From: a virus | Direction: 5' to 3' (one strand) | Virus record (IMG/VR): IMGVR_UViG_3300045988_159064 | Coordinates: 1-42,765 of that record | Length of the DNA: 42,765 bases | Part shown: positions 4,895 to 42,744 of the stretch, piece after piece | How positions within the stretch are numbered: the stretch's first letter is position 1 | Layout of the letters: each line of letters opens with the position of its first letter | Made by a program: the position numbers and the translations under genes | Notes under the pieces: model-generated | What the model saw: the letters and a program-made list of their open reading frames with translations, nothing else | What the model was told of the DNA's origin: nothing | Databases searched by the model: none

Positions 4895-6121
4895 ATGAAA
4901 ACAAATAAATTTAAAGAAATGATTATGGCTGAGGCCGAAACAATAAAGAACGAAGAGGTAAGAAACCTTACTATCAGAGTAAGAACACAGCGAGCAATCG
5001 ACGCGCTGCACGACCAATGGAACCGTGTATGTATGCATATTGATAATGTGCCAGCAGAAGAAATGTCTGAAGAGTATGCTGAGTTTATTAGAAAAATAAA
5101 CTATGCTGACAGATTAATATCTAATGCATCAGGACAGGGAGAATTAACAGATATTAATTACGGAAGAAATATCTATGAAAAACAGGTAAGAACACATAGA
5201 GACAGTGAAGATATTCATATTCAGCAATTTATTAGCGAATGGGACAGAACAGAAAACGAGATAGCAGAAATCAGGGCAGAAATTCAGGAGCTGAGAGATA
5301 TGTGGAAAGCCGCAGGCGGTTATGATTTATGGGAACAGCACGATGAAGACGAATTAGCATTATCAGAAATCGACCTGGATACAGAGGAAACAATAGATGT
5401 GGAAACAGAAAGACAAGAGAGAGAATCACTAGAAAGAGGATGGGCTGAGTTAATTGAAATGGAAAAGGCAATGAATGAAGCAAAAGCACCAAGCAAAAAA
5501 GACGAGATGATTGAAACAGTTGAAAATACATATGACATGGTAGGAGCAGCAAGAACGATTAAGAACTACACAGGAATCAGTGATAATGAGATTGACTCTG
5601 ATTACGTTGAGTACATTGTAAGACATCTATTCAGCGACGATGAGACGCAGGAGCAGCGAAACAAAGAGAGACTAATGGAGTACTACGAAAAGCAGCCGGA
5701 AAAATTCTTTGATGATTTTGATTCAGAGGATTTAGTAATCCGTATGGCAGAGGACCTGGCTAAAATTCAGTATGATGATTTAATCAAACGATACGGTTTC
5801 AAGGAGCTGAGTTATGCCCCATATAACCCAGAATTTGCAGCAAGTGAGGCAAATTACAACCGGGAAATGTCATTAGAGCTGGCGGGTACAAAGTGCGAAA
5901 TTGTTGAATCAATGCCAGAATTAGAGGATGTGGTAAAGTCCAAAATAATCTCTGACAACAATTTTTGCAAATTAATCAATATGTATAAAAAATGTGGTTT
6001 TAAAGACTGGAAAGATAAGGTGATATTGCCGAACTATGTAGCACATGACGCAGTAAGATGTCACGACCAGGATTGGCTAGTAGATTATGTCATTAACAAA
6101 TCAGCAATCAGAGGTGAATAA
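4895..6121 (+). CDS. Highly acidic hypothetical protein (408 aa)
   Basis: AGGAGG RBS. Long Asp/Glu-rich central region. No catalytic motif recognised. Confidence 0.75.
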   Translation: MKTNKFKEMIMAEAETIKNEEVRNLTIRVRTQRAIDALHDQWNRVCMHIDNVPAEEMSEEYAEFIRKINYADRLISNASGQGELTDINYGRNIYEKQVRTHRDSEDIHIQQFISEWDRTENEIAEIRAEIQELRDMWKAAGGYDLWEQHDEDELALSEIDLDTEETIDVETERQERESLERGWAELIEMEKAMNEAKAPSKKDEMIETVENTYDMVGAARTIKNYTGISDNEIDSDYVEYIVRHLFSDDETQEQRNKERLMEYYEKQPEKFFDDFDSEDLVIRMAEDLAKIQYDDLIKRYGFKELSYAPYNPEFAASEANYNREMSLELAGTKCEIVESMPELEDVVKSKIISDNNFCKLINMYKKCGFKDWKDKVILPNYVAHDAVRCHDQDWLVDYVINKSAIRGE

Positions 6122-6122
6122 G

Positions 6123-7433
6123 ATGAAAAAATATTTAGAAAAGAATGTATATGAAGCAACAATGGAGCGAATAAAATTCATCTTTGATGAGTTTGACAAC
6201 GTGCTCGTAAGTTTCTCCGGAGGCAAAGACTCAACCGTATGTATGGATATGTGTTATGACTACGCTAAACAACACGATATGCTAGATAAATTGGCGATGT
6301 ATCATTTAGATTATGAGGCTCAGTATCAGATGACGACAGATTATGTAACAGACGCATTCAACAATTATCCAGAGATACGAAAATGGTGGTTATGTCTACC
6401 GATAGAGGCACAATGTGCGTGCAGGATGGACGGGGCGTTTTGGACGCCCTGGGCTCCTGAAAATAAAGATATTTGGGTTAGAGATATGCCAGATAATAAA
6501 TATGTTATCAACGAAAACAATGCACCATTTGAGGTAAAACGGGGATTGACAGACAATGAAATGCAAAGAACATTTACAGATTGGTTTATTAGTCAATACG
6601 GAAGAACAGCAATCGTCGTTGGGATTAGATGTCAGGAACCATACGACCGGTTACAGATAATCACGAGTACAGACCATAATTTGAGATACAAAGGTAAAAA
6701 ATGGACAATTACGTCTCATATTAAAAATACAACTCACGGAATCAGTACCTTTGCATACATAATCTACGATTGGCAGGTTGAGGATGTCTGGACATATTTT
6801 GGAATAACAGGATATAGATACAACAGATTATATGACCTGTTTTATCAGGCAGGATGCAAATTAGGAGATATGAGGGTTGCCTCACCATTCAATGATTGCG
6901 GTATACACAATCTAAAATTATATAAAGTTATAGACCCGAAGAACTGGGCTAAGATGGTCGGGAGAGTCAACGGGGCAAATTTCGCCGGACTATACGGAGG
7001 AACGACAGCGATGGGCTGGAGAAAAATAATCTTGCCGCCAGGACATACCTGGAAATCATATTGCTATTTCTTATTATCCACATTAGACGAGAAACTAAAA
7101 TCTCATTATGAAAGAATTCTTGCAACATCATTAAAATATTGGTGCGAAAAGGGCGGCTTTGTATGTGAGGATATTATGGATGAAGTGGAGGCTCTCGAGG
7201 CTGATTATGAAGATATGGGAACCAGCACTAGATACAATAATCAAAGAATATTAAAGTTCACACAATACCCCGACGATTGCAAAACAAAATCATTCGCAAA
7301 GCTGCCATCATACAAAAGAATGTGTATCTGTATTATGAAAAACGATTACTGCTGTACATATATGGGATTCGGAAAAACAAAAGAAGCAATAGAAAAAAGA
7401 AAAATCACAATGGAAAAATATAAAAATTTATAA
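6123..7433 (+). CDS. PAPS-reductase-family PP-loop protein, IbrA-like
   Basis: PP-loop motif VSFSGGKDS near the N-terminus, plus a long C-terminal extension. Start moved to the ATG at 6123 (GAGGTG RBS) from the track start at 6087. Confidence 0.8.
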   Translation: MKKYLEKNVYEATMERIKFIFDEFDNVLVSFSGGKDSTVCMDMCYDYAKQHDMLDKLAMYHLDYEAQYQMTTDYVTDAFNNYPEIRKWWLCLPIEAQCACRMDGAFWTPWAPENKDIWVRDMPDNKYVINENNAPFEVKRGLTDNEMQRTFTDWFISQYGRTAIVVGIRCQEPYDRLQIITSTDHNLRYKGKKWTITSHIKNTTHGISTFAYIIYDWQVEDVWTYFGITGYRYNRLYDLFYQAGCKLGDMRVASPFNDCGIHNLKLYKVIDPKNWAKMVGRVNGANFAGLYGGTTAMGWRKIILPPGHTWKSYCYFLLSTLDEKLKSHYERILATSLKYWCEKGGFVCEDIMDEVEALEADYEDMGTSTRYNNQRILKFTQYPDDCKTKSFAKLPSYKRMCICIMKNDYCCTYMGFGKTKEAIEKRKITMEKYKNL

Positions 7434-7446
7434 GAGGAAATGACTT

Positions 7447-7998
7447 ATGTTTAAATCACCAGTTTACAATATTAAAGCAATACCAATAGAAAAAATACAG
7501 GCGAACGCATACAACCCGAACAGTGTAGCACCGCCAGAGATGAAATTATTATATAAATCAATTTTAGAGGATGGATATACAATGCCGATTGTATGCTACC
7601 ACATACCAGAGACAGATACATATGAAATTGTTGACGGGTATCACCGATATCTCACTATGAAACAGCACAAAGATATCTACGACCGCGAGGGCGGTTGTCT
7701 GCCAGTATCTGTTATAGATAAGCCGTTATCAGACAGGATGGCTAGCACAATCAGACATAACAGAGCCAGAGGAACTCACAGTATAGAGCTAATGACAAAT
7801 ATAGTTGCGGAGTTAGTTGAAAGCGGGATGTCTGACGCGTGGATTATGAAAAATATAGGCATGGATGCAGAGGAGCTTTTAAGATTAAAACAAATAAGCG
7901 GGCTTGCAGCATTATTTAAAGACAAAGATTTTTCACACGCATGGACAGCAGGAGGTGATGAGGATGACAAAAACGGGGATGGCGATAATTGCCAATAG
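7447..7998 (+). CDS. ParB/Srx-fold N-terminal domain protein, IbrB-like
   Basis: Motifs NAYNPNSV and IVDGYHRY (DGxHR), immediately downstream of the PAPS-reductase-like gene. Confidence 0.8.
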   Translation: MFKSPVYNIKAIPIEKIQANAYNPNSVAPPEMKLLYKSILEDGYTMPIVCYHIPETDTYEIVDGYHRYLTMKQHKDIYDREGGCLPVSVIDKPLSDRMASTIRHNRARGTHSIELMTNIVAELVESGMSDAWIMKNIGMDAEELLRLKQISGLAALFKDKDFSHAWTAGGDEDDKNGDGDNCQ

Positions 7999-14723: not shown

Positions 14724-15287
14724 ATGAGAGTGGCATATGTTAGAGTGTCAACGGCAGAACAGAACGAAGAGCGACAGCTGGAAGCACTGGAGCGGTTCAA
14801 CATAGAGCGCTGGTATACCGAAAAGGTCAGCGGTAAGAACGCAAACCGGCCAAAGCTGCAGGAGATGTTGGATTTTGTCAGAGAAGGCGACATTGTATAT
14901 GTTCACGATTTAAGCCGCCTTGCCCGTAGTACAAAAGACCTACTTTCTATAGTAGAACAACTGGACGCAAAGGGGGTACAGCTGGTAAGCAATAAAGAGA
15001 GCATTGATACGCAAACCGCCGCCGGAAAATTAATGCTGACTATGATTGGAGCGATTGCCGAATTTGAGAGGCAGAACCTGTTAGAGAGGCAGCGCGAGGG
15101 CATAGAGATTGCCAAGCGCGCGGGGAAATACCGCGGCGGGCATACGAAAGAGATTAATAAAGACGAATGGCAAAAAAATCTCTTCTTATATAAAACCCGT
15201 GAAATAAATAAAAGGCAGTTCGCCGAACGTCTACATATTTCCCGCCCGACGCTGGACAGGCTGCTGAAAAAGGAGGCCTCACAATGA
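14724..15287 (+). CDS. Small serine recombinase (resolvase/invertase family)
   Basis: N-terminus MRVAYVRVSTAEQNEERQ (catalytic Ser), 187 aa, C-terminal HTH QFAERLHISRPTLDRLL. Confidence 0.92.
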   Translation: MRVAYVRVSTAEQNEERQLEALERFNIERWYTEKVSGKNANRPKLQEMLDFVREGDIVYVHDLSRLARSTKDLLSIVEQLDAKGVQLVSNKESIDTQTAAGKLMLTMIGAIAEFERQNLLERQREGIEIAKRAGKYRGGHTKEINKDEWQKNLFLYKTREINKRQFAERLHISRPTLDRLLKKEASQ

Positions 15288-16347: not shown

Positions 16348-16383
16348 TTTTTATTTTTTTAATTATTCTGCATATTAAATATG
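16348..16383 (+). promoter_or_regulatory. Phage-type promoter element P12 (TTTTTA-17-CATATTAAATATGAGG)
   Basis: Motif family member. Precedes the helicase gene and is followed by hairpin GAGGATAA/TTGTCCTC. Confidence 0.6.
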
Positions 16384-16458
16384 AGGATAAAGAAACGCTT
16401 GTCCTCACGACGACAGAATAGAAAAAAAATGAGATATATGGAACAGGAGGAAAAAGCT

Positions 16459-18843
16459 ATGAAAGACATAGATTATCTAAATAAAATCAGTGAAATATCT
16501 GACAAAATAATAAAAATGGCGGAGCTTGGTAAAGATACGACCGCCCTGGAGCAGATGCTGCAGCAGATGATGGCAGCAGCAATGCAGCATCCGGAACCGG
16601 AAAAGGAGCCGGAAAAGGAGCCGATGGCATTACCCCCGGTAGAAAACATTGACGGGCTGCAGGTGATTACACTATCGAAAATGCCGAAAACGATGAGGGA
16701 TTGTTTTGAACGCGGTGATATCAGCCTTGTAACTACGAAAGAGCAATTTTACGAGGACGAGCTGTACGAGGCAGCCTGCAGGGTTGTGAGAGAGACAGAC
16801 AGAAATAAAATTAAATATATGCTGGAACAAAAGGCAAAAGAGCTTGGCGGAACGGCGCTCTGCAAGATGTTCACTCAGAGTTACGTGGCCAAAAAGAAAG
16901 AAATAAAAAAGAAACGAGAAGAAGAAGAAAGAAAGTTGGCAGAGGCGCTCAAGGAGCGGCAGGCAGCAGAGGCAGAGGAGAAGCGGAGAGCTGGCAACAA
17001 GACCAAGTTCACGAACATGCCCGAGTGGTGCACCGGCAATAAATACGTCGGTGAAGAATGGATTACCAATAACGACGAAGGCGTTTACAAGCTGGAAGAT
17101 TGTGGAAAGACGGTAAAACGAACCGAGGCCTGCGGCCGCCCTGTAGCTATAAATAGACTGCTGGAGCCAATAGATGAATCAGGCTGGGACGGCATAGAGC
17201 GAGTTGAGATTGTATTTGAAAGCGAAAGAGGCTGGAAGAGAAAAGTTGTAGAAAGAGAGACGCTCTTGAATAAAAATAAGGCGATTGCTCTTACAAATGA
17301 CGGTGTTGATATTACATCAGACCGGGCCGGCGCTTTTACAGGCTATATGTCCTCTATGCTGAAAGAGTCCTCTATAAGAGGGGCAATTCCGAGTAGGAAA
17401 TCTTCAAGAAAGATGGCTTTATATAAAGACGGACAAATACTTTTACCATACAGAGACCCGGAGTTTTATTTTGAAAAGAAAGCATCTATGCCAAACCTGG
17501 TAAATGCGCTACAGGCACACGGGGAGAGCGAGAAAATGGAAGAAAACCGCGATGCATGGTTTAAAGAGTTCAAGAAGATACGAGCAGAAAAGAACGGAAT
17601 GTTCAACTTCCTCACCGCATCTTCATTATGCGCACCGATTATTGGAATGATTGGGAACATTGACGGTTTTGTATGTAATGTTGTAGGAGTTACAGAATGC
17701 GGCAAGTCAGTCGCCGAGAGTGTTACAGCGACAATATGGGGCAGCTTCAAGACTTCTGATGGTTTTGTTATAGGGGCAAAAAATACATCAAATGCATTTG
17801 AGACATATGCGGATGTTCTGAATTGCCTGCCACTGACAATTGATGATTATAACAAACTGAAAGAAAAGGAAAAAGATGCATTTAAACAAATCATATATGA
17901 GATTGCGAACGGCATAGGAAAAGGAAGAGCCACGAAGGACATGGGACTGAGAGCAATGGCCTCTTATTCATTAAATCTGATAGTTACATCAGAAGAACCT
18001 TTGAGAGAAAGGGCCGGCGGCGGCGCTACAAACCGTCTGCTGACATATATGGCAGACAGTAAATGCCCTTGGACACCAGACAGAATCACCGAAATGATGA
18101 ACTTTTTTAGCACTAATTACGGGCACGCCGGAGTTGAGTACATAGAGATTTTAAACAATCTTGGACGCGGAAAGGTGCAAGACATGATTAAGACACACCG
18201 TGACGAGTTACTAGAGGCAGCAAAAGGTCAGAAAAAAACAATGAAACAGATAAACGCGATGGCGGTTCTGCTTACAGCAGATGAGATTGCAGCGAATATG
18301 CTTTTTAAGGATAAAATCAAAATCACCACCGAACAGGCGGTTGATATGCTTGAGAGCGAAGACGTGGTTCAGGCAGAGGCGCAGGCTTATGAGAAAATTA
18401 TAGATAAAATTTTCAGCAACAAACAGCACTTCCAGGGTTTGGTTGAGTGCGATAAATTAACCGGTGACCTGTGGGGCAAATTTGTCAGAGAGGACAAATA
18501 TGAGGACTACGTAGAAGTAGAGGAAGAAATAAAGACAGGAGAAAAAGACGAAACCGGAAAAGAAATTGTAAAAACAGAAAAAAGACAGGTCAAACCAACA
18601 ACGGCGGCAATGTTTAAATTTAAGCTACAGGAGCTGGCGGCAGAGGTCGGGGTTAGTTACGAAATGTTCATCGAATACCTCAGACGAAAAAAATTGTTAT
18701 ATACAGATGAAGGCAGAGATACAAAAAAAGTAATAATAAAGAGGACTGATGGAAAGAAGGGCCAGATTAGGCAGAGAATGGTAAAGTTTAGATTGCCGCA
18801 ACAGGACAATGTTCCGTTTTGCGAGGAGGATGACGAAGATTAA
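16459..18843 (+). CDS. Replicative P-loop NTPase / SF3-type helicase with a DUF927-like central domain (probable origin-binding replication protein)
   Basis: AGGAGG 8 nt before the ATG at 16459; the track start at 16381 lies inside the promoter. Walker A GVTECGKSV and Walker B LPLTIDDY. The DUF927-like assignment is from memory of the family pattern. Confidence 0.75.
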   Translation: MKDIDYLNKISEISDKIIKMAELGKDTTALEQMLQQMMAAAMQHPEPEKEPEKEPMALPPVENIDGLQVITLSKMPKTMRDCFERGDISLVTTKEQFYEDELYEAACRVVRETDRNKIKYMLEQKAKELGGTALCKMFTQSYVAKKKEIKKKREEEERKLAEALKERQAAEAEEKRRAGNKTKFTNMPEWCTGNKYVGEEWITNNDEGVYKLEDCGKTVKRTEACGRPVAINRLLEPIDESGWDGIERVEIVFESERGWKRKVVERETLLNKNKAIALTNDGVDITSDRAGAFTGYMSSMLKESSIRGAIPSRKSSRKMALYKDGQILLPYRDPEFYFEKKASMPNLVNALQAHGESEKMEENRDAWFKEFKKIRAEKNGMFNFLTASSLCAPIIGMIGNIDGFVCNVVGVTECGKSVAESVTATIWGSFKTSDGFVIGAKNTSNAFETYADVLNCLPLTIDDYNKLKEKEKDAFKQIIYEIANGIGKGRATKDMGLRAMASYSLNLIVTSEEPLRERAGGGATNRLLTYMADSKCPWTPDRITEMMNFFSTNYGHAGVEYIEILNNLGRGKVQDMIKTHRDELLEAAKGQKKTMKQINAMAVLLTADEIAANMLFKDKIKITTEQAVDMLESEDVVQAEAQAYEKIIDKIFSNKQHFQGLVECDKLTGDLWGKFVREDKYEDYVEVEEEIKTGEKDETGKEIVKTEKRQVKPTTAAMFKFKLQELAAEVGVSYEMFIEYLRRKKLLYTDEGRDTKKVIIKRTDGKKGQIRQRMVKFRLPQQDNVPFCEEDDED

Positions 18844-18849
18844 AAAAAA

Positions 18850-18875
18850 GGGACGCGAAAGCGCCCCTTTTTTTT
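18850..18875. terminator. Terminator after the helicase gene (A-run / hairpin / T-run, potentially bidirectional)
   Basis: GGGACGC-GAAA-GCGCCCC flanked by A8 and T8. Confidence 0.75.
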
Positions 18876-19345
18876 AATGGGGCAGAATACAAGATGCCCC
18901 GTTTTTTGCGGAGCAAAAGGCAGATGGCGCCCCGCCCTTGGAGCAGAAATTGCGGACGGCAGGGCGGAAAATACGGCACGGGGCGGCGTTTTTGCGGCAA
19001 AATTTGGAAATATTTACCAAAAGATACACATTGAAAAAAAGAAAAATTGGGCATATCGCCAGTGGTGCCCCGATGCCCCGCCCCGTCCAGTAAAAATGTT
19101 ATATATATATAGAAAATAAAAAAAGAAAAAAATATTTTTTTTTCTTTTTATTTCTCTATATAGGGTTATAAAATGCTGGGGCAGTTGGGGCAGTCGTTGT
19201 GGATATAGAATAAATATAATAAAATATACTATATATAGTATATAATATATATAAATATACAATATATTGTATATAAATAACTCTTTTATACAAAATACTC
19301 TGCCCCGAGATGTAGGGGCAGTGCTGGGGCGATTGGGGCTGTGGC
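18876..19345. other. Candidate replication origin: AT-only palindromic core flanked by GGGGCAG/CTGCCCC repeats
   Basis: Imperfect AT palindrome at 19111-19155. Perfect 18-bp palindromes TATACTATATATAGTATA (19225-19242) and TATACAATATATTGTATA (19256-19273). Tandem TGGGGCAGT x2 (19177-19193). GGGGC(A/G/T) or its complement at about 18879, 18895, 19067-19085, 19299, 19314, 19325 and 19334. Confidence 0.5.
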
Positions 19346-19638: not shown

Positions 19639-19667
19639 TTGGCTGCATACTTTCTATATGCTATAAT
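19639..19667 (+). promoter_or_regulatory. Host-type extended -10 promoter (TTGGCT-17-TGcTATAAT) with an iteron core TGCATAC in the spacer
   Basis: -35 at 19639-19644, TGC at 19659-19661, -10 at 19662-19667, TGCATAC at 19644-19650. Confidence 0.65.
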
Positions 19668-19697
19668 CTGCATATATACAGAGGAGGTGTACATATT

Positions 19698-20417
19698 ATG
19701 AGTGACGCATTACACGAGCACGCGAAGATGTTGGCAAGAAATTTATTGAGATTGCAGGTATGCACTATTGGAGAGATTGCCGAGACGCTGGAACTAGAAC
19801 CCCCGGAGGTACAAGAGCTAGCTGTTGAGGTCTATGATGAGCGGGCGGAGCAGCTGACGGCGCTGCGGCAAATTATGAATGATATAGGCGAGAAACGCGC
19901 GGGGCGGCAGCAACAAGAGGCCTTATTGTTTGATGCGATTGGTATTCTGAATCAGCTTTTGCATAGGAGAGAGCCCGGGCGCGGCGAGATTGCCGATATC
20001 AGAAACTGGATACATAATATGGCCGACCACGACCTGACGCTTTACCTTGATAAACTATATGCGGGCGGAAATGACAACGAGATATTGATTCACGGAGGGG
20101 CTTTTCTTGATGGCGTGTATGCACTTTTTATGCGTACACACTACGACGACCTGCGGCGAAATGATGATGGATTTGTTGAGCCTGACACCACCGCCGCCCC
20201 GCCCGCGCCGGATGCCGCGGCCGAGGCTTACGCGCGGGATGAAGCGCGCGATGATGCTTTCCTTGACGGTTATGACCACGGCCACCGAGACGCCAAAGAA
20301 GAGATTGCATCACGACTGCTGCAGCAGAGCCGGCTGCCTTTCCCGTCCATTGCCGGCTATACCGGGCTGACAGATGAAGAGGTGAGGACGCTTGCAGCGC
20401 GAGTTCTGAAACGGTGA
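19698..20417 (+). CDS. Putative DNA-binding protein with HTH-like motifs at both termini (239 aa)
   Basis: GAGGAGG RBS. N-terminal LLRLQVCTIGEIAETLELEPPEVQELA and C-terminal LLQQSRLPFPSIAGYTGLTDEEVRTLA resemble each other. The track start at 19476 was rejected. Confidence 0.7.
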   Translation: MSDALHEHAKMLARNLLRLQVCTIGEIAETLELEPPEVQELAVEVYDERAEQLTALRQIMNDIGEKRAGRQQQEALLFDAIGILNQLLHRREPGRGEIADIRNWIHNMADHDLTLYLDKLYAGGNDNEILIHGGAFLDGVYALFMRTHYDDLRRNDDGFVEPDTTAAPPAPDAAAEAYARDEARDDAFLDGYDHGHRDAKEEIASRLLQQSRLPFPSIAGYTGLTDEEVRTLAARVLKR

Positions 20418-20425
20418 AAATACGA

Positions 20426-21088
20426 GGTGCATACTTTTTCCCCTTCATATTTCAGGGTGCATACTTTATGTGTGCACCTTTTTTCATACCCCGGCGCGCC
20501 GTCATAATATGCATACCCAAGCCAGCCCCCGCCGCCTGCTGCGGCATAAAATGCATACACTACCCGGACACCCACTCCGCCCGCCGGCTGGCTATACCAG
20601 CCGCCGGGCTTCGCTTTTCGCACCATAAAGTGCATACACTAGGCGGAACGCTTTTCTTCCATAATGTGCATACATAAACCGCCCCTTCTTTTCTGCATTT
20701 TTTTTCTTCTTTCTTAAAAAAGTGCATACACTAGCCGGACACCAAAGGCAAAGCCGCAGCGGGCAAAAAGTGTGCATACTAGGCAGCCCCGTTTTGTTTG
20801 CAAAAAGTATGCATACAAGGCAGCCCCGGCTTTGCGGTTGATTGCGAAAAAGTGCATACACTAGCCGGACACCAGGAACAGGCCCGCAGTCGCCAAAAAG
20901 TGCATACACTAGGCCGCCCGCGTTTTGCTTTATTTTGTATGCATACTACCCGGACACAATTCGGCAAAAAGTGCATACACTAGCCGGACACCCTCCGGCA
21001 GTTCTGCGGGCAAAAAGTATGCATACAAGGCTGCCCCCAAACCGTTTCAGCTGCTGCCGGCATAAAGTGTACACCCAAGCCAGCCCCC
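20426..21088 (+). repeat. Iteron array: 15 same-orientation copies of (A)nGTGCATAC plus a GC-rich tail; consensus AAAAAGTGCATACACTAGCCGGACACC
   Basis: Core positions are about 20427, 20458, 20510, 20552, 20631, 20667, 20723, 20773, 20810, 20853, 20901, 20940, 20972, 21020 and 21067. Three perfect 27-mers lie at 20717-20743, 20847-20873 and 20966-20992. Confidence 0.9.
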
Positions 21089-21197
21089 AGGCTGGCAGAC
21101 GCCGCCACCACTCTCCGGCCGCCTGAACCCTGCTGAGCGGCTAAGCCGTAGATTTCGGCCCGCCAGCCCTTCTTTTTTGCCTTTTTTTCATTTTTTC

Positions 21198-21231
21198 TTT
21201 TGGTTTTGTAGGCCGCGGAGCGGCCGTCTGC
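21198..21231 (+). repeat. 34-bp repeat copy 1 (TTTTGGTTTTGTAGGCCGCGGAGCGGCCGTCTGC) containing the palindrome GGCCGC-GGA-GCGGCC
   Basis: 33/34 identity with 21507-21540. Preceded by a polypyrimidine tract. Confidence 0.85.
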
Positions 21232-21506
21232 CCCGTTTTTGCGGGCATACTTTACCAGCGGCAGCAGGTTTTGCCCCGGTTTAGGTACATACTCAAAGCG
21301 GGCAACGGTAAACCGCCGCACGCTTTTCGGTGGTTTTATTCTTCCCGCCAGGCCACGCGGCCGGACGCTGCCCGCCCGCACGGCCAGGCTCTCTTTATGC
21401 ATACTTTTTTGTATTTGTAGTACATCTTTTCTTTTCCTCTTTCTTTCCTTTTTCTTTTGTTTATTTATAGGTGCATACTTTTTTCGGCCTTTCTTTTAGC
21501 CTTCTT

Positions 21507-21540
21507 TTTTGGTTTTGTAGGCCGCGAAGCGGCCGTCTGC
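21507..21540 (+). repeat. 34-bp repeat copy 2
   Basis: 33/34 identity with 21198-21231, 309 bp downstream. Preceded by a polypyrimidine tract and by GTGCATAC at 21471. Confidence 0.85.
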
Positions 21541-21629
21541 ACCACCGGAAAAAGCCCGGAAGCCCGCATAAGCAGCGGCTTTGCGAGGGTTTGAGAGGAA
21601 TATTTTTAAAAATATTTTTAAAAAGTTGT

Positions 21630-21668
21630 TTTTTATTCTACATATTTTTCGGCATATTATATATGTAA
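21630..21668 (+). promoter_or_regulatory. Phage-type promoter element P13 (TTTTTA-17-CATATTATATATGTAAAGG)
   Basis: Full-length motif family member pointing toward the packaging operon. No credible ORF for about 800 nt downstream on this strand. Confidence 0.55.
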
Positions 21669-21832
21669 AGGAAATGAAAGACGTAAGCCGGATTCGCCGG
21701 CGAGCCTCCTTTTCTCTACAATTTTTTTATATACTGTCGTTGAGACGGCTGCAGCCCTGCAGGTGTAATCCCGGGGTTGTGGCTGTTTCTATTTTTGTGG
21801 AGAAAAAAGAAAAAAAGAAAAAGAAAGAAAAT

Positions 21833-21888
21833 GGCGCGGGAGTGTCTCTAAAAAAGAGATATTTTTCGCGCCTTAATTTTTGTTATTT
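21833..21888 (+). terminator. Two-tier hairpin plus U-rich tract in the P13 leader (candidate attenuator/terminator)
   Basis: Outer stem GGCGCG/CGCGCC and inner stem TCTCT-AAAAA-AGAGA, followed by TTAATTTTTGTTATTT. Confidence 0.45.
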
Positions 21889-22008
21889 GGATTGTCGCAA
21901 CCTTAAATGTGATTTTGGTAAAGCAAGTTTACCAAAAATGATTTACCAGAAATTTTCGGCAGGAAAAGAGTTTGTTTCATTACGGGCAGTTCACAGTGTA
22001 ACGGCCGC

Positions 22009-22075
22009 AAAAAGTGTACACCTTTAGGAGACACTTGGCGGCGCCAATTAAAAAGTGTACACGCTAGCCGGGCAC
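22009..22075 (+). repeat. Two outlying iteron variants (AAAAAGTGTACACCTTTAGGAGACAC and AAAAAGTGTACACGCTAGCCGGGCAC)
   Basis: At 22009-22034 and 22050-22075. The second abuts the stop codon of the minus-strand gene. Confidence 0.7.
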
Positions 22076-22350
22076 TAACGCCAGAGCCCCTCCAATAGAT
22101 ATTCCTGCAGCGAGAACAGCTCATCGAGCGTCATTCCCCCTCTGCCGAATGCGTCTTTCGCCCGTGAATATAAATGCATCGCTTCGCCCTGTATGCTGAA
22201 AAACAAATCCGGGTCATGATTGTTTGACCAGCTCTCTCTGACATCACCGCTCTCATCATATACATATTTTCGTTTCTGCTCCATTAGCTCTTCGTAGTTC
22301 ACATCCCCTGGCCAGTTCATAAATTTTATTAGTTCGTCTATCGTTCGCAT
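22075..22350 (-). CDS. Hypothetical 91-aa protein on the minority strand (moron candidate)
   Basis: AAGGAGG RBS before the ATG whose complement is at 22348-22350. The track start at 22410 was rejected. Has its own near-consensus promoter. Confidence 0.7.
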   Translation of the reverse strand: MRTIDELIKFMNWPGDVNYEELMEQKRKYVYDESGDVRESWSNNHDPDLFFSIQGEAMHLYSRAKDAFGRGGMTLDELFSLQEYLLEGLWR

Positions 22351-23373: not shown

Positions 23374-23492
23374 GGGAGGGGGCGGGTATAAATGTTCAAA
23401 ATATTTACACAGAAAGCCCATGTCCAGATTAGCTTTTACAAATTTCCGAATAGAACCTATTTTTAGAAAATTCACGAGGAGGTGAGGCTCAT
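23374..23492. other. Candidate cos region (between the HNH and small terminase genes)
   Basis: Position is inferred from the HNH-terS-terL arrangement of HK97-like cos phages. A G-rich run GGGAGGGGGCGGGT lies at 23374-23387. No direct end evidence. Confidence 0.3.
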
Positions 23493-41117: not shown

Positions 41118-41333
41118 ATGAAGAAAAGATGGAATTGGAAACAGTGGGGCAAAGCAGCCGGCGTTAGAGCCGTGAAAACGATGGCTCAGACCGCAATCGC
41201 ATTAATCCCGGCGAGCGTTATGATAAGTGCTGTTGACTGGAAAACGGTGCTTGGAACCGCGGCGCTGGCTGGTGTAGTATCTATTCTGACGAGCCTGGCC
41301 GGCATCCCGGAGGTGGATGAAAATGAAGATTGA
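41118..41333 (+). CDS. Holin
   Basis: 71 aa with an AGGAGG RBS. Two hydrophobic segments and an acidic C-terminus. Directly upstream of the endolysin. Confidence 0.8.
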   Translation: MKKRWNWKQWGKAAGVRAVKTMAQTAIALIPASVMISAVDWKTVLGTAALAGVVSILTSLAGIPEVDENED

Positions 41334-42744
41334 TTCTACATATATCAGCAATAATAACAGCTATGCGAACGTCACCCCGCGCTGGATTGTTATTCATAAT
41401 ACAGATAACTACGCGGCCGGGGCGAACGCCCGAGCTCATGCTAGGGCGCAGCACGACGGCAATTTCAGCGGTTACAGCGCTCACGTTTTTGTTGATGATT
41501 CAGAAGCATACCAGGCAACCCCGTATAATAGAGGCTGCTGGCATGTTGGTGTAAATTATGGTTCTCATAATCTTTTTGGAACATGTTCAAATCATAATTC
41601 AGTAGGTATTGAGATGTGTGTAAATTCCGGCTATAACTACGAGAAGGCGTTTCAGAATACCGTTCAAGTATGCCGGCAATTAATGCAGCAGTTAGGCATT
41701 GACGCTGACCACGTGGTACAGCATTACGACGTATGCACCAAAAATTGCCCGTCTGCAATTAGAGCAAAGGGCGATTGGCAGCGATTCAAAAAGTTAATCA
41801 GTGCTAACCAAGCACCCTCATACGGCCAGAATCCGGCGAAACTATACCGAGTAAGAAAAACCTGGAAGGACAGCAAGAGCCAAATCGGCGCGTATGCAGT
41901 TCTGGGCAACGCAAAGAAAAATTGTCCGAGCGGGTACTCTGTATATGATGAAGCCGGCAAAGTTATCTATACAAACAAAAGCCACGAGCCCGTAAGAAGG
42001 AATGGAATGCAGGCGACAGAACTGAAAGGGTTGACCGCAAAAGAACTTATCTCCAAAGTCGGCCCGCTATTTACGGCAGACCAGAAAAAAAGCGGCGTTC
42101 TTGCCTCCGTGTCTATGGCACAGTTCATCCTTGAATCAGGTTGGGGAAAATCCGGACTGACCCAAAAGGCCAATAACTGTTTTGGTATGAAGAAAAACCT
42201 TTCCGGCAACACCTGGCCGGGTAGCACATGGGACGGAAAATCTGTTATCTCTATGAAAACCGGTGAGGAGACAGAGGACGGAAAGCCGTATACAATTACG
42301 GCCGAATTTAGGAAGTATGCCTGTATTGAGGACAGCATTGCAGACCACTCAGCATATCTGACCGGCGCGAAAGATGGCGACGAGTTACGTTATAAGGGGC
42401 TGAAAGGCTGCAAAAAGTATAAGCAGGCCGCACAAATTATCAAAGCCGGTGGCTACGCTACGAGCACCTCATATGTAAAAGCCCTCTGTGACATCATCAA
42501 AGAGTACAGCCTCACCGATTATGATGTGAAGAAAAAGGCGACAAAACCGGCAGCAAAGACATTTAAGGTACAGGTTACGGCCGATGATTTACGTATCCGA
42601 AAGACTCCGAGCCTGCAGGGCGAGATTGCAGGCTATACCGGCAAGGGGATTTTCACAATCACCGAGGAAAAGAACGGCTGGGGCAAATTGAAATCCGGCG
42701 CCGGCTGGATTTGCCTGACGGTCAGCTGTGTAAAGAGGGTATAA
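41317..42744 (+). CDS. Multi-domain endolysin: N-acetylmuramoyl-L-alanine amidase, then glucosaminidase, then an SH3-like C-terminus
   Basis: WIVIHNTDN, VGIEMC and HYDVCTKNCPS (amidase_2). SMAQFILESGWGKS and NNCFGMK (glucosaminidase). GWGKLKSGAGWI C-terminus. Confidence 0.9.
   Translation: MKMKIDSTYISNNNSYANVTPRWIVIHNTDNYAAGANARAHARAQHDGNFSGYSAHVFVDDSEAYQATPYNRGCWHVGVNYGSHNLFGTCSNHNSVGIEMCVNSGYNYEKAFQNTVQVCRQLMQQLGIDADHVVQHYDVCTKNCPSAIRAKGDWQRFKKLISANQAPSYGQNPAKLYRVRKTWKDSKSQIGAYAVLGNAKKNCPSGYSVYDEAGKVIYTNKSHEPVRRNGMQATELKGLTAKELISKVGPLFTADQKKSGVLASVSMAQFILESGWGKSGLTQKANNCFGMKKNLSGNTWPGSTWDGKSVISMKTGEETEDGKPYTITAEFRKYACIEDSIADHSAYLTGAKDGDELRYKGLKGCKKYKQAAQIIKAGGYATSTSYVKALCDIIKEYSLTDYDVKKKATKPAAKTFKVQVTADDLRIRKTPSLQGEIAGYTGKGIFTITEEKNGWGKLKSGAGWICLTVSCVKRV

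What the first reader, a model, noticed from the sequence alone, without database searches (positions are those of the whole stretch)
20426..21088. One-orientation array of at least 15 iterons (AAAAAGTGCATACACTAGCCGGACACC) in a gene-free, GC-rich block
About 660 bp with no credible ORF contains 15 copies of a composite motif, all in the same orientation. Each copy has a short A-tract, the core (G/A)TGCATAC (one GTGTACAC variant), and then a GC-rich tail.

- **Perfect copies:** three 27-mers are identical (20717-20743, 20847-20873, 20966-20992).
- **Tail classes:** the tails fall into recurring classes: CTAGCCGGACACC, (T/A)AGGC(A/T)GCCCC and CCAAGCCAGCCCCC.
- **Higher-order period:** the last nine copies form three triplets with internal offsets of about 0/48/86 bp, giving a period of about 120-130 bp.
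- **Spacing:** core-to-core spacing is irregular, 31-79 bp.
- **Outlying copies:** further core copies lie at 19644 (inside the promoter of the adjacent HTH gene), 21397, 21471, 22009 and 22050.
- **Enrichment:** a random 7-mer is expected about 2.6 times per strand in 42.7 kb. I noticed only about three TGCATAC copies elsewhere (12068, 23147, 28613).

The architecture recalls plasmid and phage iteron origins (P1, F, R6K) and tandem-repeat centromeres (F sopC, 12 x 43 bp). No ParA-type NTPase is present and the phage also carries an integrase. Other possible roles are a terminase-recognition array, a titration sink for a regulator, or something not yet described.
Basis: partly seen in the sequence, partly recalled or inferred. 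Interest (0 to 1): 0.82.

Follow-up and report, generated by a model that had tools for sequence, protein, structure and literature searches.

The report
Phage regulator-binding repeat array
A gut-bacterial prophage carries a conserved, non-coding cluster of about 13-15 copies of a 27-bp DNA motif right after an uncharacterised helix-rich gene; it is most likely a docking array for that phage protein at the switch between early and late genes, and it is neither the replication origin nor the packaging site.

Summary
The array is real. TGCATAC occurs 40 times in the window against 5.5 expected, with 14 plus-strand hits in 600 bp and three identical 27-mers. No frame stays open in nine relatives.

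Two corrections. Thirteen units (20509-21088) share one orientation; the first two are inverted, and one forms the upstream gene's terminator hairpin. Outside the cluster the 7-mer occurs 18 times, at background rate.

The window is an integrated HK97-like prophage of Lachnospiraceae. More than 15 related loci in three lineages keep this order: DUF927 helicase, origin-like region, 19698-family gene(s), terminator, array, conserved promoter-like element, convergent 91-aa gene, HNH, cos, TerS.

Two readings are disfavoured. A separate iteron set around an AT-rich stretch (18843-19340) changes with helicase type, as at SaPI origins; the array core does not. Adapter-tagged contig ends place cos at 23417-23426, 2.3 kb away.

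Best reading (about 0.4): recognition repeats for the adjacent protein, as with the direct repeats just downstream of rinA/ltrC/arpU. The protein matches no known family or fold, and binding is untested.

Interest is moderate; I rate it a new variant of a known kind.

The parts
20509..21088 (+). Core array. Thirteen co-oriented composite units, each with an A-tract (AAAAA or ATAAA), an alternating purine-pyrimidine core (G/A)TG(C/T)A(C/T)AC and a GC-rich tail (CTAGCCGGACACC, or (T/A)AGGC(A/T)GCCCC). Spacers are GC-rich and units lie 32-92 bp apart, most often 48 bp.
   Evidence: Motif columns are more conserved than spacers. No frame is open.
20425..20490 (+). Two inverted motif copies (minus-strand reading AAAAAGTATGCACC). 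The second pairs with GTGTGCACC to form the hairpin 20454-20480. With the following T-run this is the intrinsic terminator of the 19698 gene.
   Evidence: One search lists it as a terminator-like site. The same motif-built hairpin plus T-run follows the homologous gene in L009, L012, L014 and L041.
19698..20417 (+). The 239-aa gene ('g239') and candidate binder. It has an N-terminal all-helical domain (residues 1-160), a Pro/Ala-rich linker and a C-terminal HTH-like module.
   Evidence: No Pfam, PHROG or NCBIfam family matches. The family is very narrow: 24 hits among 1.84 billion representatives. The AlphaFold model has pLDDT 91 but no fold match. The C-terminal module resembles repeat proteins that hit Sigma70_r4 and KorA.
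19639..19667 (+). Promoter-like site of g239 (TTGGCT, 17 nt, TG-TATAAT). The core CTGCATAC overlaps the -35 hexamer and spacer. A second core-like word, GTGTACAT, lies over the ribosome-binding site at 19686-19693.
   Evidence: scores it 10 of 12 with an extended -10. The core reads TGTATAC in L004 and L009 and is absent in L014. Its status as an operator is therefore weak.
20115..20129 (-). Perfect 15-mer copy (AAAAAGTGCATACAC) on the minus strand inside g239. A weaker copy lies at 19758-19770.
   Evidence: (I21-I24). It is present in L003 but not in L004 or L001.
21395..21483 (-). Two inverted motif copies (21395-21409 and 21469-21483) within a T-rich block to the right of the array.
   Evidence: (D8). 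In L014 and L041 the equivalent copy lies about 30 bp upstream of the conserved promoter-like element.
21591..21700 (+). Conserved promoter-like module (TTTTTCGGCATATTATATATGTAA) followed by a short GC hairpin (GCCGG-ATTCG-CCGGC). It is the best-conserved stretch of the non-coding block.
   Evidence: One search shows the invariant columns across three lineages and a compensatory change in the hairpin. It belongs to a class of about 11 such modules in the window.
22009..22076 (+). Two further quasi-palindromic motif copies (AAAAAGTGTACAC...) abutting the stop codon of the convergent 91-aa gene.
   Evidence: They are present at the same place in every lineage.
22075..22350 (-). Convergent 91-aa gene of unknown function with its own sigma-70-like promoter (22400-22372). 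It always accompanies the module.
   Evidence: It is 73% identical in L009, where g239 is only 31% identical.
18843..19340 (.). Context: the candidate true replication origin. GGGGCAG iterons flank AT-rich DNA directly 3' of the DUF927/HTH_56 primase-helicase (16381-18843).
   Evidence: The iteron word co-varies with helicase type. The SaPI precedent is described in PMC7581432.
23417..23426 (.). Context: the cos cleavage site. The 10-nt cohesive end CCCATGTCCA lies between HNH (ends 23373) and TerS (starts 23493).
   Evidence: A related 46.5-kb contig carries Illumina adapters at both ends and lacks exactly these 10 nt. Two further contigs end at the same base.

Best explanation
The array is a cis-acting cluster of double-stranded DNA recognition repeats for a phage-encoded protein. 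The most likely binder is the product of the adjacent 19698 gene, a member of an uncharacterised helical family.

The gene is the last one of the replication/early block. Behind its own terminator sit 13 co-oriented 27-bp sites, bracketed by inverted copies. To the right lie a conserved promoter-like element and the HNH-cos-TerS packaging operon.

Proposed mechanism (inferred): many copies of the protein load on the array and build a nucleoprotein complex. That complex sets transcription across the early/late boundary. It could activate the downstream promoter and/or block read-through and the convergent 91-aa gene's transcript.

This parallels the way RinA, LtrC and ArpU bind direct repeats just distal to their own genes to switch on terS transcription.

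**Shown here:**
- the array's existence;
- its conservation;
- its non-coding nature;
- its fixed position;
- its independence from the helicase, TerS and resolvase.

**Inferred:**
- the identity of the binder;
- the transcriptional output.
For: **1. Real and selected element.**
- Enrichment is strong.
- Pairwise identity among five close relatives is 0.94 for the A-tract, 0.86 for the core and 0.88 for the tail, against 0.83 for spacers (p = 0.005).
- Whole units are gained and lost while the motif is kept.

**2. Conserved core.** The word A5-GTGCA(C/T)AC is kept in lineages whose g239-family proteins share only 21-33% identity. The CCGGACAC tail appears in all of them.

**3. Fixed synteny.** In more than 15 loci the order is helicase, origin-like region, one to three g239-family genes, motif-built terminator, array, promoter-like element, 91-aa gene, HNH, TerS.

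**4. Local target.** The extended motif occurs essentially only between 19770 and 22062. This fits a regulator with a single target.

**5. Published precedent.** Ltr activators lie just after the replication module. [quoted passage not shown]

**6. DNA-binding potential.**
- The protein has HTH-like modules.
- It also has a confidently predicted helical domain.

**7. DNA rather than RNA.** A terminator separates the gene from the array, which argues for a DNA-level role.
Against: - No binding data exist.
- g239 matches no RinA, ArpU or Ltr model and no known fold.
- The array is far larger than Ltr sites: 13 x 27 bp against 2-4 x 7 nt.
- It ends about 560 bp before the nearest conserved promoter-like element and 1.4 kb before the first packaging-side gene. 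A convergent gene lies in between.
- That promoter belongs to the same class as about 10 promoters in the early region. It is therefore not obviously activator-dependent.
- The core motif changes little while g239 diverges to about 25-30% identity and triplicates. A more conserved binder is possible, either a host factor or the 91-aa protein.
- g239 and the 91-aa gene never separate in the data, so co-variation cannot name the binder.
Confidence: 0.4

Rival explanations
1. Replication element. The array is a second origin or an origin-control locus bound by an initiator. Models are P1 incA, P4 crr and R6K iterons. It would fire with, or throttle, the nearby helicase origin.
For: - The array is iteron-like and irregularly spaced, and sits next to a gene that could encode the binder.
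- A T-rich, AT-rich block (21150-21530) lies beside it.
- It lies 1.1 kb from the origin-like region. A copy of the core overlaps the g239 promoter.
Against: - The helicase-associated iterons are a different word (GGGGCAG) and change with helicase type. The array core stays the same where the helicase is only 41% identical.
- The array motif is absent from the AT-rich origin-like region.
- g239 resembles no Rep or initiator family or fold.
- The family is absent from 72,556 plasmids.
- There are no DnaA boxes nearby.
Confidence: 0.12
2. Segregation or genome-organising site. The array is a centromere-like platform for an NTPase-independent partition or positioning protein, as with R388 StbA/stbS or pSK1 Par.
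For: - A direct-repeat array lies next to a roughly 240-aa protein with an HTH-like start, long helices and a disordered linker.
- Partition systems without an NTPase exist (bioRxiv 10.1101/2022.04.29.490116).
Against: - The element is an integrated prophage in integrase-to-lysin order and sits inside a 161-kb contig.
- No ParA, ParM or TubZ was found.
- There are no plasmid homologues.
- There is no fold match to known centromere-binding proteins.
Confidence: 0.1
3. Host-directed array near the first-entering DNA end. The co-oriented sites would act on a host enzyme or factor. One version is a Chi-like signal that tames AddAB entering at the right cos end. Another is a sink for a host DNA-binding protein.
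For: - The array lies 2.3-3.0 kb from the right genome end. By analogy with lambda this is the last-packaged end, which should enter the cell first.
- All 13 units point the way a Chi site would need to for an enzyme entering from that end (inference).
- The core is conserved across phage lineages whose own proteins diverge strongly.
- The reverse complement GTATGCACT matches the DnaA box TTATNCACA at 6 of 8 specified positions.
Against: - The conserved unit is 13-27 bp with an A-tract, much longer than known 5-8 nt Chi sites.
- The core shows no enrichment or strand bias in the rest of the phage.
- The resemblance to a DnaA box is lost in the GTGCACAC lineages. No canonical boxes are nearby.
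- No host genome was available to test for skewed over-representation.
Confidence: 0.1
4. Packaging signal. The array is bound by TerS or HNH as an accessory cos element, comparable to cosB or cosQ.
For: - The array sits in the non-coding block upstream of HNH-TerS-TerL.
- TerS proteins recognise repeated sites in some phages (own knowledge).
Against: - cos maps to 23417-23426, between HNH and TerS. That is 2.3 kb from the array, with three genes in between.
- The motif is unchanged in L006, where TerS is 59% and TerL 56% identical.
Confidence: 0.06
5. RNA-level element. The array is transcribed, and the repeated AAAAAGUGCAUAC words bind or sponge an RNA-binding protein or antiterminator.
For: - The terminator hairpin of g239 is itself built from the motif in every lineage.
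- The plus strand folds better than shuffles, z = -4.7 against -1.7 for the minus strand.
Against: - The z-score rests on only 20 shuffles and is inflated by near-palindromic repeats pairing with each other.
- No per-unit hairpin recurs.
- An intrinsic terminator lies upstream, and no conserved promoter precedes the array.
- Inverted copies flank the array, as expected for double-stranded DNA sites.
- Rfam gives no match.
Confidence: 0.06

Closest known systems
Direct repeats bound by the late activators RinA, LtrC and ArpU of Gram-positive temperate siphoviruses (PMC3753634)
   Same: - The regulator gene is the last gene after the replication module.
- The repeats lie immediately distal to that gene, after its terminator and upstream of the packaging operon.
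- The repeats are direct, not inverted.
- There is a single target locus per genome.
   Different: - Here there are 13-15 units of 27 bp spread over 660 bp, against 2-4 units of 7 nt in about 59 bp.
- The protein matches none of the Ltr families.
- The first packaging-side gene is 1.4 kb away, behind a convergent gene.
- Binding and activation are untested.
Plasmid and phage iteron control loci (P1 incC-repA-incA, R6K, F, P4 ori/crr)
   Same: - An irregularly spaced array of asymmetric sites lies downstream of a candidate binder gene.
- A core copy lies at that gene's promoter.
- There is a higher-order repeat of about 120-130 bp containing three sites, as recalled for P4 crr (own knowledge).
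   Different: - The phage's helicase has its own, different iterons around an AT-rich region, and these co-vary with the helicase.
- The array motif is absent from that region.
- g239 is not Rep-like.
- The family is absent from plasmids.
SaPI and SCCmec origins: iterons directly 3' of a self-loading DUF927/Rep helicase (PMC7581432)
   Same: This describes the neighbouring element at 18843-19340, not the array. It lies directly downstream of the DUF927/HTH_56 helicase, has short iterons flanking AT-rich DNA, and its specificity tracks the helicase.
   Different: The array lies 1.1 kb further on, behind another gene. It uses another word and does not track the helicase.
NTPase-independent partition sites (R388 StbA/stbS, bioRxiv 10.1101/2022.04.29.490116; pSK1 Par, own knowledge)
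   Same: Arrays of direct repeats are bound by a single HTH protein that also regulates transcription. No motor gene is present.
   Different: The host element here is an integrating prophage. There is no homology or fold similarity and no plasmid relatives.
cos regions of lambda and HK97 (cosQ-cosN-cosB)
   Same: The phage is an HK97-like cos phage with HNH, a Terminase_4-type TerS and 10-nt cohesive ends.
   Different: The cleavage site is 2.3 kb from the array. The array does not vary with TerS.

Membership tests
Iteron-type replication origin or control locus | The iteron sequence is the recognition word of the element's initiator and co-varies with it. | tested here: not met
   The helicase varies (41-45% identity) along with a different iteron set (GGGGCAG, CTGGGCAG, GGACCGA, TGGGATTCTGGGA). 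The array core is unchanged between the window and L004/L005.
Iteron-type replication origin or control locus | The iterons adjoin an AT-rich unwinding element and, usually, DnaA boxes. | tested here: inconclusive
   A T-rich block lies at 21150-21530 beside the array. There are no DnaA boxes. A stronger AT-rich region flanked by iterons exists at 19100-19280.
Iteron-type replication origin or control locus | The adjacent gene encodes a Rep or initiator protein. | tested here: not met
   No Rep family or fold matches. There are no plasmid homologues.
Plasmid partition centromere (sopC, parS, parC, tubC) | A cognate NTPase motor (ParA, ParM or TubZ) is encoded with the centromere-binding protein. 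| tested here: not met
   No such domain appears in any sizeable ORF scanned. The only ParB_N protein (7447-7998) is paired with a PAPS-reductase/DUF3440 gene 12 kb away.
Plasmid partition centromere (sopC, parS, parC, tubC) | The element is maintained extrachromosomally. | tested here: not met
   The window runs from a tyrosine integrase (269-1534) to the lysin (41317-42744), which is prophage order. A relative sits inside a 161-kb contig.
Terminase recognition site (cosB or pac) | The site lies next to the terminase cleavage site or within or beside terS. | tested here: not met
   cos lies at 23417-23426, shown by adapter-tagged ends and two further contig ends. The array ends at 21088.
Ltr-type late-activator repeats (RinA, LtrC, ArpU) | Direct repeats lie immediately distal to the regulator gene, after its terminator, at the replication/packaging boundary. 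| tested here: met
   The definition comes from PMC3753634.
Ltr-type late-activator repeats (RinA, LtrC, ArpU) | The regulator belongs to the RinA, ArpU, LtrA, LtrB or LtrC protein families. | tested here: not met
   No NCBIfam, Pfam or PHROG match at E <= 0.1 for 11 family members.
Ltr-type late-activator repeats (RinA, LtrC, ArpU) | The repeats sit just upstream of the terS-operon promoter and are required for its activation. | not testable with these tools
   A conserved promoter-like element lies about 560 bp downstream in the window lineage and about 30 bp from the last inverted copy in L014/L041. Activity cannot be computed.
CRISPR array or type III toxin-antitoxin RNA repeats | Near-identical repeats occur at a fixed period, with cas or toxN genes nearby. 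| tested here: not met
   Spacing ranges from 32 to 92 bp. Tandem Repeats Finder reports no array. There is no Rfam match and no such genes are present.
res sites of a serine resolvase | The sites co-occur with the cognate resolvase. | tested here: not met
   The resolvase gene 14724-15287 is missing from L004 and L005, which keep the array.

The most novel reading that the evidence does not exclude
The array, the g239-family protein or proteins and the convergent 91-aa gene together form a previously undescribed control device. It sits at the last-packaged end of HK97-like Lachnospiraceae phages, which by analogy with lambda should enter the cell first.

On this reading a polar, multi-copy protein-DNA barrier or landing pad governs what happens to the entering or replicating genome. 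Possible roles are protection from end-dependent nucleases, a polar block to replication forks or transcription next to the origin, or a convergent-transcription switch. It would be more than a simple promoter activator site.
Probability: 0.2. Interest if true: 0.8.

Novelty: new variant of a known kind. Interest (0 to 1): 0.55.

Why it matters
Regulation in temperate phages of gut Lachnospiraceae (Blautia and the 'Ruminococcus' group) is almost unstudied.

This 1.65-kb non-coding block is conserved across at least three lineages and seen in many gut metagenome samples. It probably holds the early-to-late switch.

If the adjacent protein family binds the array, this defines a new family of phage regulators together with its operator. 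That would help with prophage annotation, with predicting induction behaviour, and as an orthogonal protein-DNA pair.

The work also gives concrete, testable maps for this phage group:
- the origin (18.85-19.35 kb);
- cos (23417-23426);
- a promoter class.

Tried and rejected
**No matches found**
- GenBank phages and PLSDB plasmids hold nothing similar, by DNA or by protein.
- GTDB representative genomes gave nothing with the protein.
- A two-copy DNA pattern found one true relative, a Blautia glucerasea prophage. The rest were unrelated regular tandem repeats.
- The same pattern in metagenomes returned five more copies of the same module and many unrelated arrays. None showed the array without the module.
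- Rfam gave nothing at gathering threshold or at E <= 1. No tRNAs were found.

**Protein identity**
- The first AlphaFold run on the full protein was poor, with pLDDT 60.
- The N-domain with a deeper alignment gave pLDDT 91. Foldseek then gave only non-significant TetR-like hits (E >= 0.25, TM about 0.3).
- A PDB profile search gave nothing.

**Readings rejected**
- *Resolvase res sites.* The 0/48/86 offsets recall the 0/53/87 of gamma-delta res. The resolvase is absent from relatives that keep the array.
- *DnaA-box cluster.* The match is 6 of 8, is lost in other lineages, and no canonical boxes lie nearby.
- *Promoter array.* The units have no -10 element at a proper distance.
- *Phage RNA polymerase promoters.* No RNA polymerase gene is present.
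- *Genome-wide enrichment of the 7-mer.* It is explained by its sub-words.

**Inconclusive**
- Co-variation of the core with g239 against the 91-aa gene or HNH could not be resolved, because all travel together.
Full report
**1. The observation**

- TGCATAC occurs 40 times in the window against 5.5 +/- 2.2 in dinucleotide shuffles.
- Fourteen plus-strand hits fall in 20428-21026. A GTGTACAC variant lies at 21067.
- The 27-mer AAAAAGTGCATACACTAGCCGGACACC is perfect at 20717, 20847 and 20966. Shuffles give none.
- Repeat finding recovers families of 8-11 copies and a 73-nt higher-order unit 130 bp apart.
- The block is GC-richer (0.53) and loses the positive GC and AT skews seen across the gene-bearing rest of the window.
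- All six frames are interrupted in the window and in eight relatives.

Four corrections are needed.
- Orientation is best defined by the A-tract and the tail. On that basis 13 units (20509-21088) are co-oriented.
- The two leftmost copies (20428, 20458) and two copies at 21398 and 21472 are inverted.
- The 20458 copy pairs with GTGTGCACC to form a hairpin followed by a T-run. This is the terminator of the upstream gene.
- Outside the cluster the 7-mer occurs 18 times, not about 3. That equals its maximum-order Markov expectation of 17.2.

Only the extended motif is truly local. It is confined to 19770-22062.

**2. Genomic setting**

The window is a prophage in integrase-to-lysin order.
- It starts with a tyrosine integrase (269-1534) and ends with an amidase/glucosaminidase lysin (41317-42744).
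- The local order is:
  - DUF927 primase-helicase with a C-terminal HTH_56 domain (16381-18843);
  - an 850-bp intergenic region;
  - the 239-aa gene at 19698-20417, called g239 here;
  - 1.65 kb without genes, containing the array;
  - a convergent 91-aa gene (22075-22350, minus strand);
  - two HNH genes;
  - a Terminase_4-type TerS;
  - TerL.

**3. Relatives**

g239 has about 100 close homologues (at least 78% identity) in gut metagenomes. One is annotated from Ruminococcus sp. TM10-9AT and others from Caudoviricetes MAGs.

An exhaustive profile search of 1.84 billion representatives found only 24 hits. Among them are 150-184-aa proteins that match the N-terminal 155 residues.

Contigs carrying these distant relatives keep the same architecture. 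This holds for L009, L012 and L014, for the Blautia glucerasea MSK.18.94 prophage L041, and for L074-L079, L149 and L195. L014-type phages carry two or three tandem paralogues of the gene.

In every lineage the gene or genes end in a hairpin built from the motif. After that comes an array of 5-12 units by a strict count. The core is A5-GTGCA(C/T)AC, and a CCGGACAC tail appears in all lineages.

Among five close relatives whole 48-bp units come and go. Motif columns are nevertheless more conserved than spacers: 0.94, 0.86 and 0.88 against 0.83, p = 0.005.

The array is therefore a selected, non-coding DNA element.

**4. It is not the helicase's origin**

Directly 3' of the helicase gene lies a different repeat system.
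- GGGGCAG words at 18879, 19178, 19187, 19300 (minus strand) and 19315 flank AT-rich stretches and an AT tandem repeat.
- In L004 the helicase is 41% identical and the words become CTGGGCAG, although the surrounding DNA is 82% identical.
- In L009 they are GGACCGA, and in L014/L041 TGGGATTCTGGGA.
- This is the layout described for SaPI origins, where a Rep helicase recognises iterons directly downstream of its gene through its C-terminal domain. DUF927 Cch is related to SaPIbov1 Rep (PMC7581432).

The array core is identical in the window, L004 and L005 despite the helicase swap. The array motif does not occur in the origin-like region.

**5. It is not the packaging site**

A related 46.5-kb IMG/VR contig begins CTACACGACGCTCTTCCGATCT|GATTAGC... 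and ends ...GTAGAAAG|AGATCGGAAGA. Both ends therefore carry Illumina adapters.

In the window the two ends correspond to 23427 and 23416. They are separated by CCCATGTCCA.

Two further contigs from other samples end at exactly the homologous base. Loci that span the site continue with CCCAT(G/A)....

The cos cleavage site thus lies between HNH and TerS, with a 10-nt cohesive end. Its absence from both adapter-tagged ends suggests a 3' overhang removed by end-repair (inference; HK97-like by my own knowledge).

The array is 2.3-3.0 kb from the right end. It is unchanged in L006, where TerS and TerL are 59% and 56% identical.

**6. Other exclusions**
- The small serine recombinase (14724-15287) is absent from L004 and L005.
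- No partition NTPase is present.
- The family is absent from plasmids.
- There are no DnaA boxes nearby.
- Rfam and tRNA searches are empty.
- The plus strand folds better than shuffles (z = -4.7, 20 shuffles), but no per-unit structure recurs. Near-palindromic cores pairing with each other explain the score.

**7. The adjacent protein**
- g239 has no Pfam, PHROG or NCBIfam family.
- Its C-terminal 50 residues weakly resemble the C-terminus of Rpn-type 'transposases' (phrog_3300, E = 0.003). They also resemble repeat proteins that hit Sigma70_r4 and KorA.
- The N-domain gives a confident model with seven helices (pLDDT 91, pTM 0.78). It has no significant structural neighbour. The best hits are TetR-like regulators at E of about 0.25-1 and TM of about 0.3.
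- It has its own strong sigma-70-like promoter with an extended -10.
- DNA binding is plausible but unproven.

**8. Best explanation**

The closest documented arrangement is that of the late activators RinA, LtrC and ArpU.
- Their genes lie just after the replication module.

Gene position, terminator, direct repeats and packaging operon follow the same order here. I therefore read the array as the recognition repeats of the g239-family protein, forming a large nucleoprotein complex at the early/late boundary.

Downstream lies the best-conserved stretch of the block, TTTTTCGGCATATTATATATGTAA, with a GC hairpin that shows a compensatory change between lineages. It belongs to a class of about 11 promoter-like modules in the window.

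In L014/L041 an inverted motif copy sits about 30 bp upstream of this element. Two more motif copies abut the stop codon of the convergent 91-aa gene in all lineages.

The complex could:
- activate this promoter;
- act as a roadblock between the early and late units;
- arbitrate the convergent transcription.

Which of these applies is inference.

Confidence is about 0.4, for these reasons:
- The array is much larger than Ltr sites and further from the target genes.
- The protein is unrelated to Ltr families.
- The core barely changes while g239 diverges to 21-33% identity.
- The binder cannot be separated from the 91-aa gene by co-variation.

**9. Rivals**
- Origin-control locus: 0.12.
- NTPase-independent segregation or organising site: 0.10 (precedent StbA).
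- Host-directed, Chi-like or sink array near the end that probably enters first: 0.10.
- Accessory packaging signal: 0.06.
- RNA sponge or antiterminator target: 0.06.

**10. Verdict**

This is a genuine, conserved and uncharacterised cis-element. It is best filed as a greatly expanded variant of the 'direct repeats distal to the regulator gene' theme, linked to a new protein family. Interest is moderate (0.55). It would be higher if the array proves to do more than activate a promoter.

Noticed in passing
window 18843-19340: Probable true replication origin. GGGGCAG iterons flank AT-rich DNA and a 31-bp AT tandem repeat, directly 3' of the DUF927/HTH_56 helicase. The iteron word differs in relatives with different helicases (CTGGGCAG, GGACCGA, TGGGATTCTGGGA).
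   Followed up: yes
window 23417-23426: cos site. A related contig carries Illumina adapters at both ends and lacks exactly CCCATGTCCA. Two more contigs end at the same base. This implies 10-nt cohesive ends between HNH and TerS, as in HK97.
   Followed up: yes
window 1756, 4480, 4600, 4676, 9360, 10679, 15637, 15786, 15903, 16366, 21648 (+ strand): A family of about 11 promoter-like modules: an A-tract, TTTTCA, about 17 nt, then CATATTATATATG(T)AAG. Most are followed within about 30 nt by a short GC-rich hairpin. All lie in the early region except 21648. They may be a phage-specific promoter class with nut-like or 5'-stabilising hairpins.
   Followed up: partly
window 21169-21234 and 21478-21543: A 66-nt direct repeat (77% identity) containing the hairpin GGCCGCGRAGCGGCC. 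It brackets a 243-bp segment that is missing in L001 and L004. This looks like a duplication or deletion polymorphism.
   Followed up: partly
window 21917-21950: The inverted repeat TGGTAAAGCAAGTTTACCA is invariant across all three lineages and is followed by further TTTACCA words. Its function is unknown.
   Followed up: no
window 21800-21831 versus 21170-21201 and 21428-21466: A polypurine run (GAGAAAAAAGAAAAAAAGAAAAAGAAAGAAAA) is complementary to polypyrimidine runs 340-610 bp upstream. Similar tracts occur in L009. They could form triplex DNA or long-range RNA pairing.
   Followed up: no
window 22075-22350 (- strand): A convergent 91-aa gene has its own sigma-70-like promoter (22400-22372) and no family match. 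It is 73% identical in L009, where g239 is 31% identical, and it is always present between the array block and HNH.
   Followed up: partly
L006, L007 and L008 (homology starts at window ~19791): In one lineage the homology to the window begins inside g239, giving a 198-205-aa product. Upstream lie an asparagine synthase gene, an AraC-like fragment and a direct repeat GGGTCYGACCCTATGAAGTA. This points to a rearrangement or an alternative junction.
   Followed up: partly
window 6087-7998: A PAPS-reductase/DUF3440 gene sits next to a ParB_N-domain gene. From my own knowledge this is an IbrA/IbrB-like pair. It is the only ParB-like protein in the window and lies 12 kb from the array.
   Followed up: no
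L014 4638-6159; L041; L074-L079: Blautia-type relatives carry two or three tandem paralogues of the g239 N-domain family (166, 183 and 163 aa) in place of the single 239-aa gene.
   Followed up: partly
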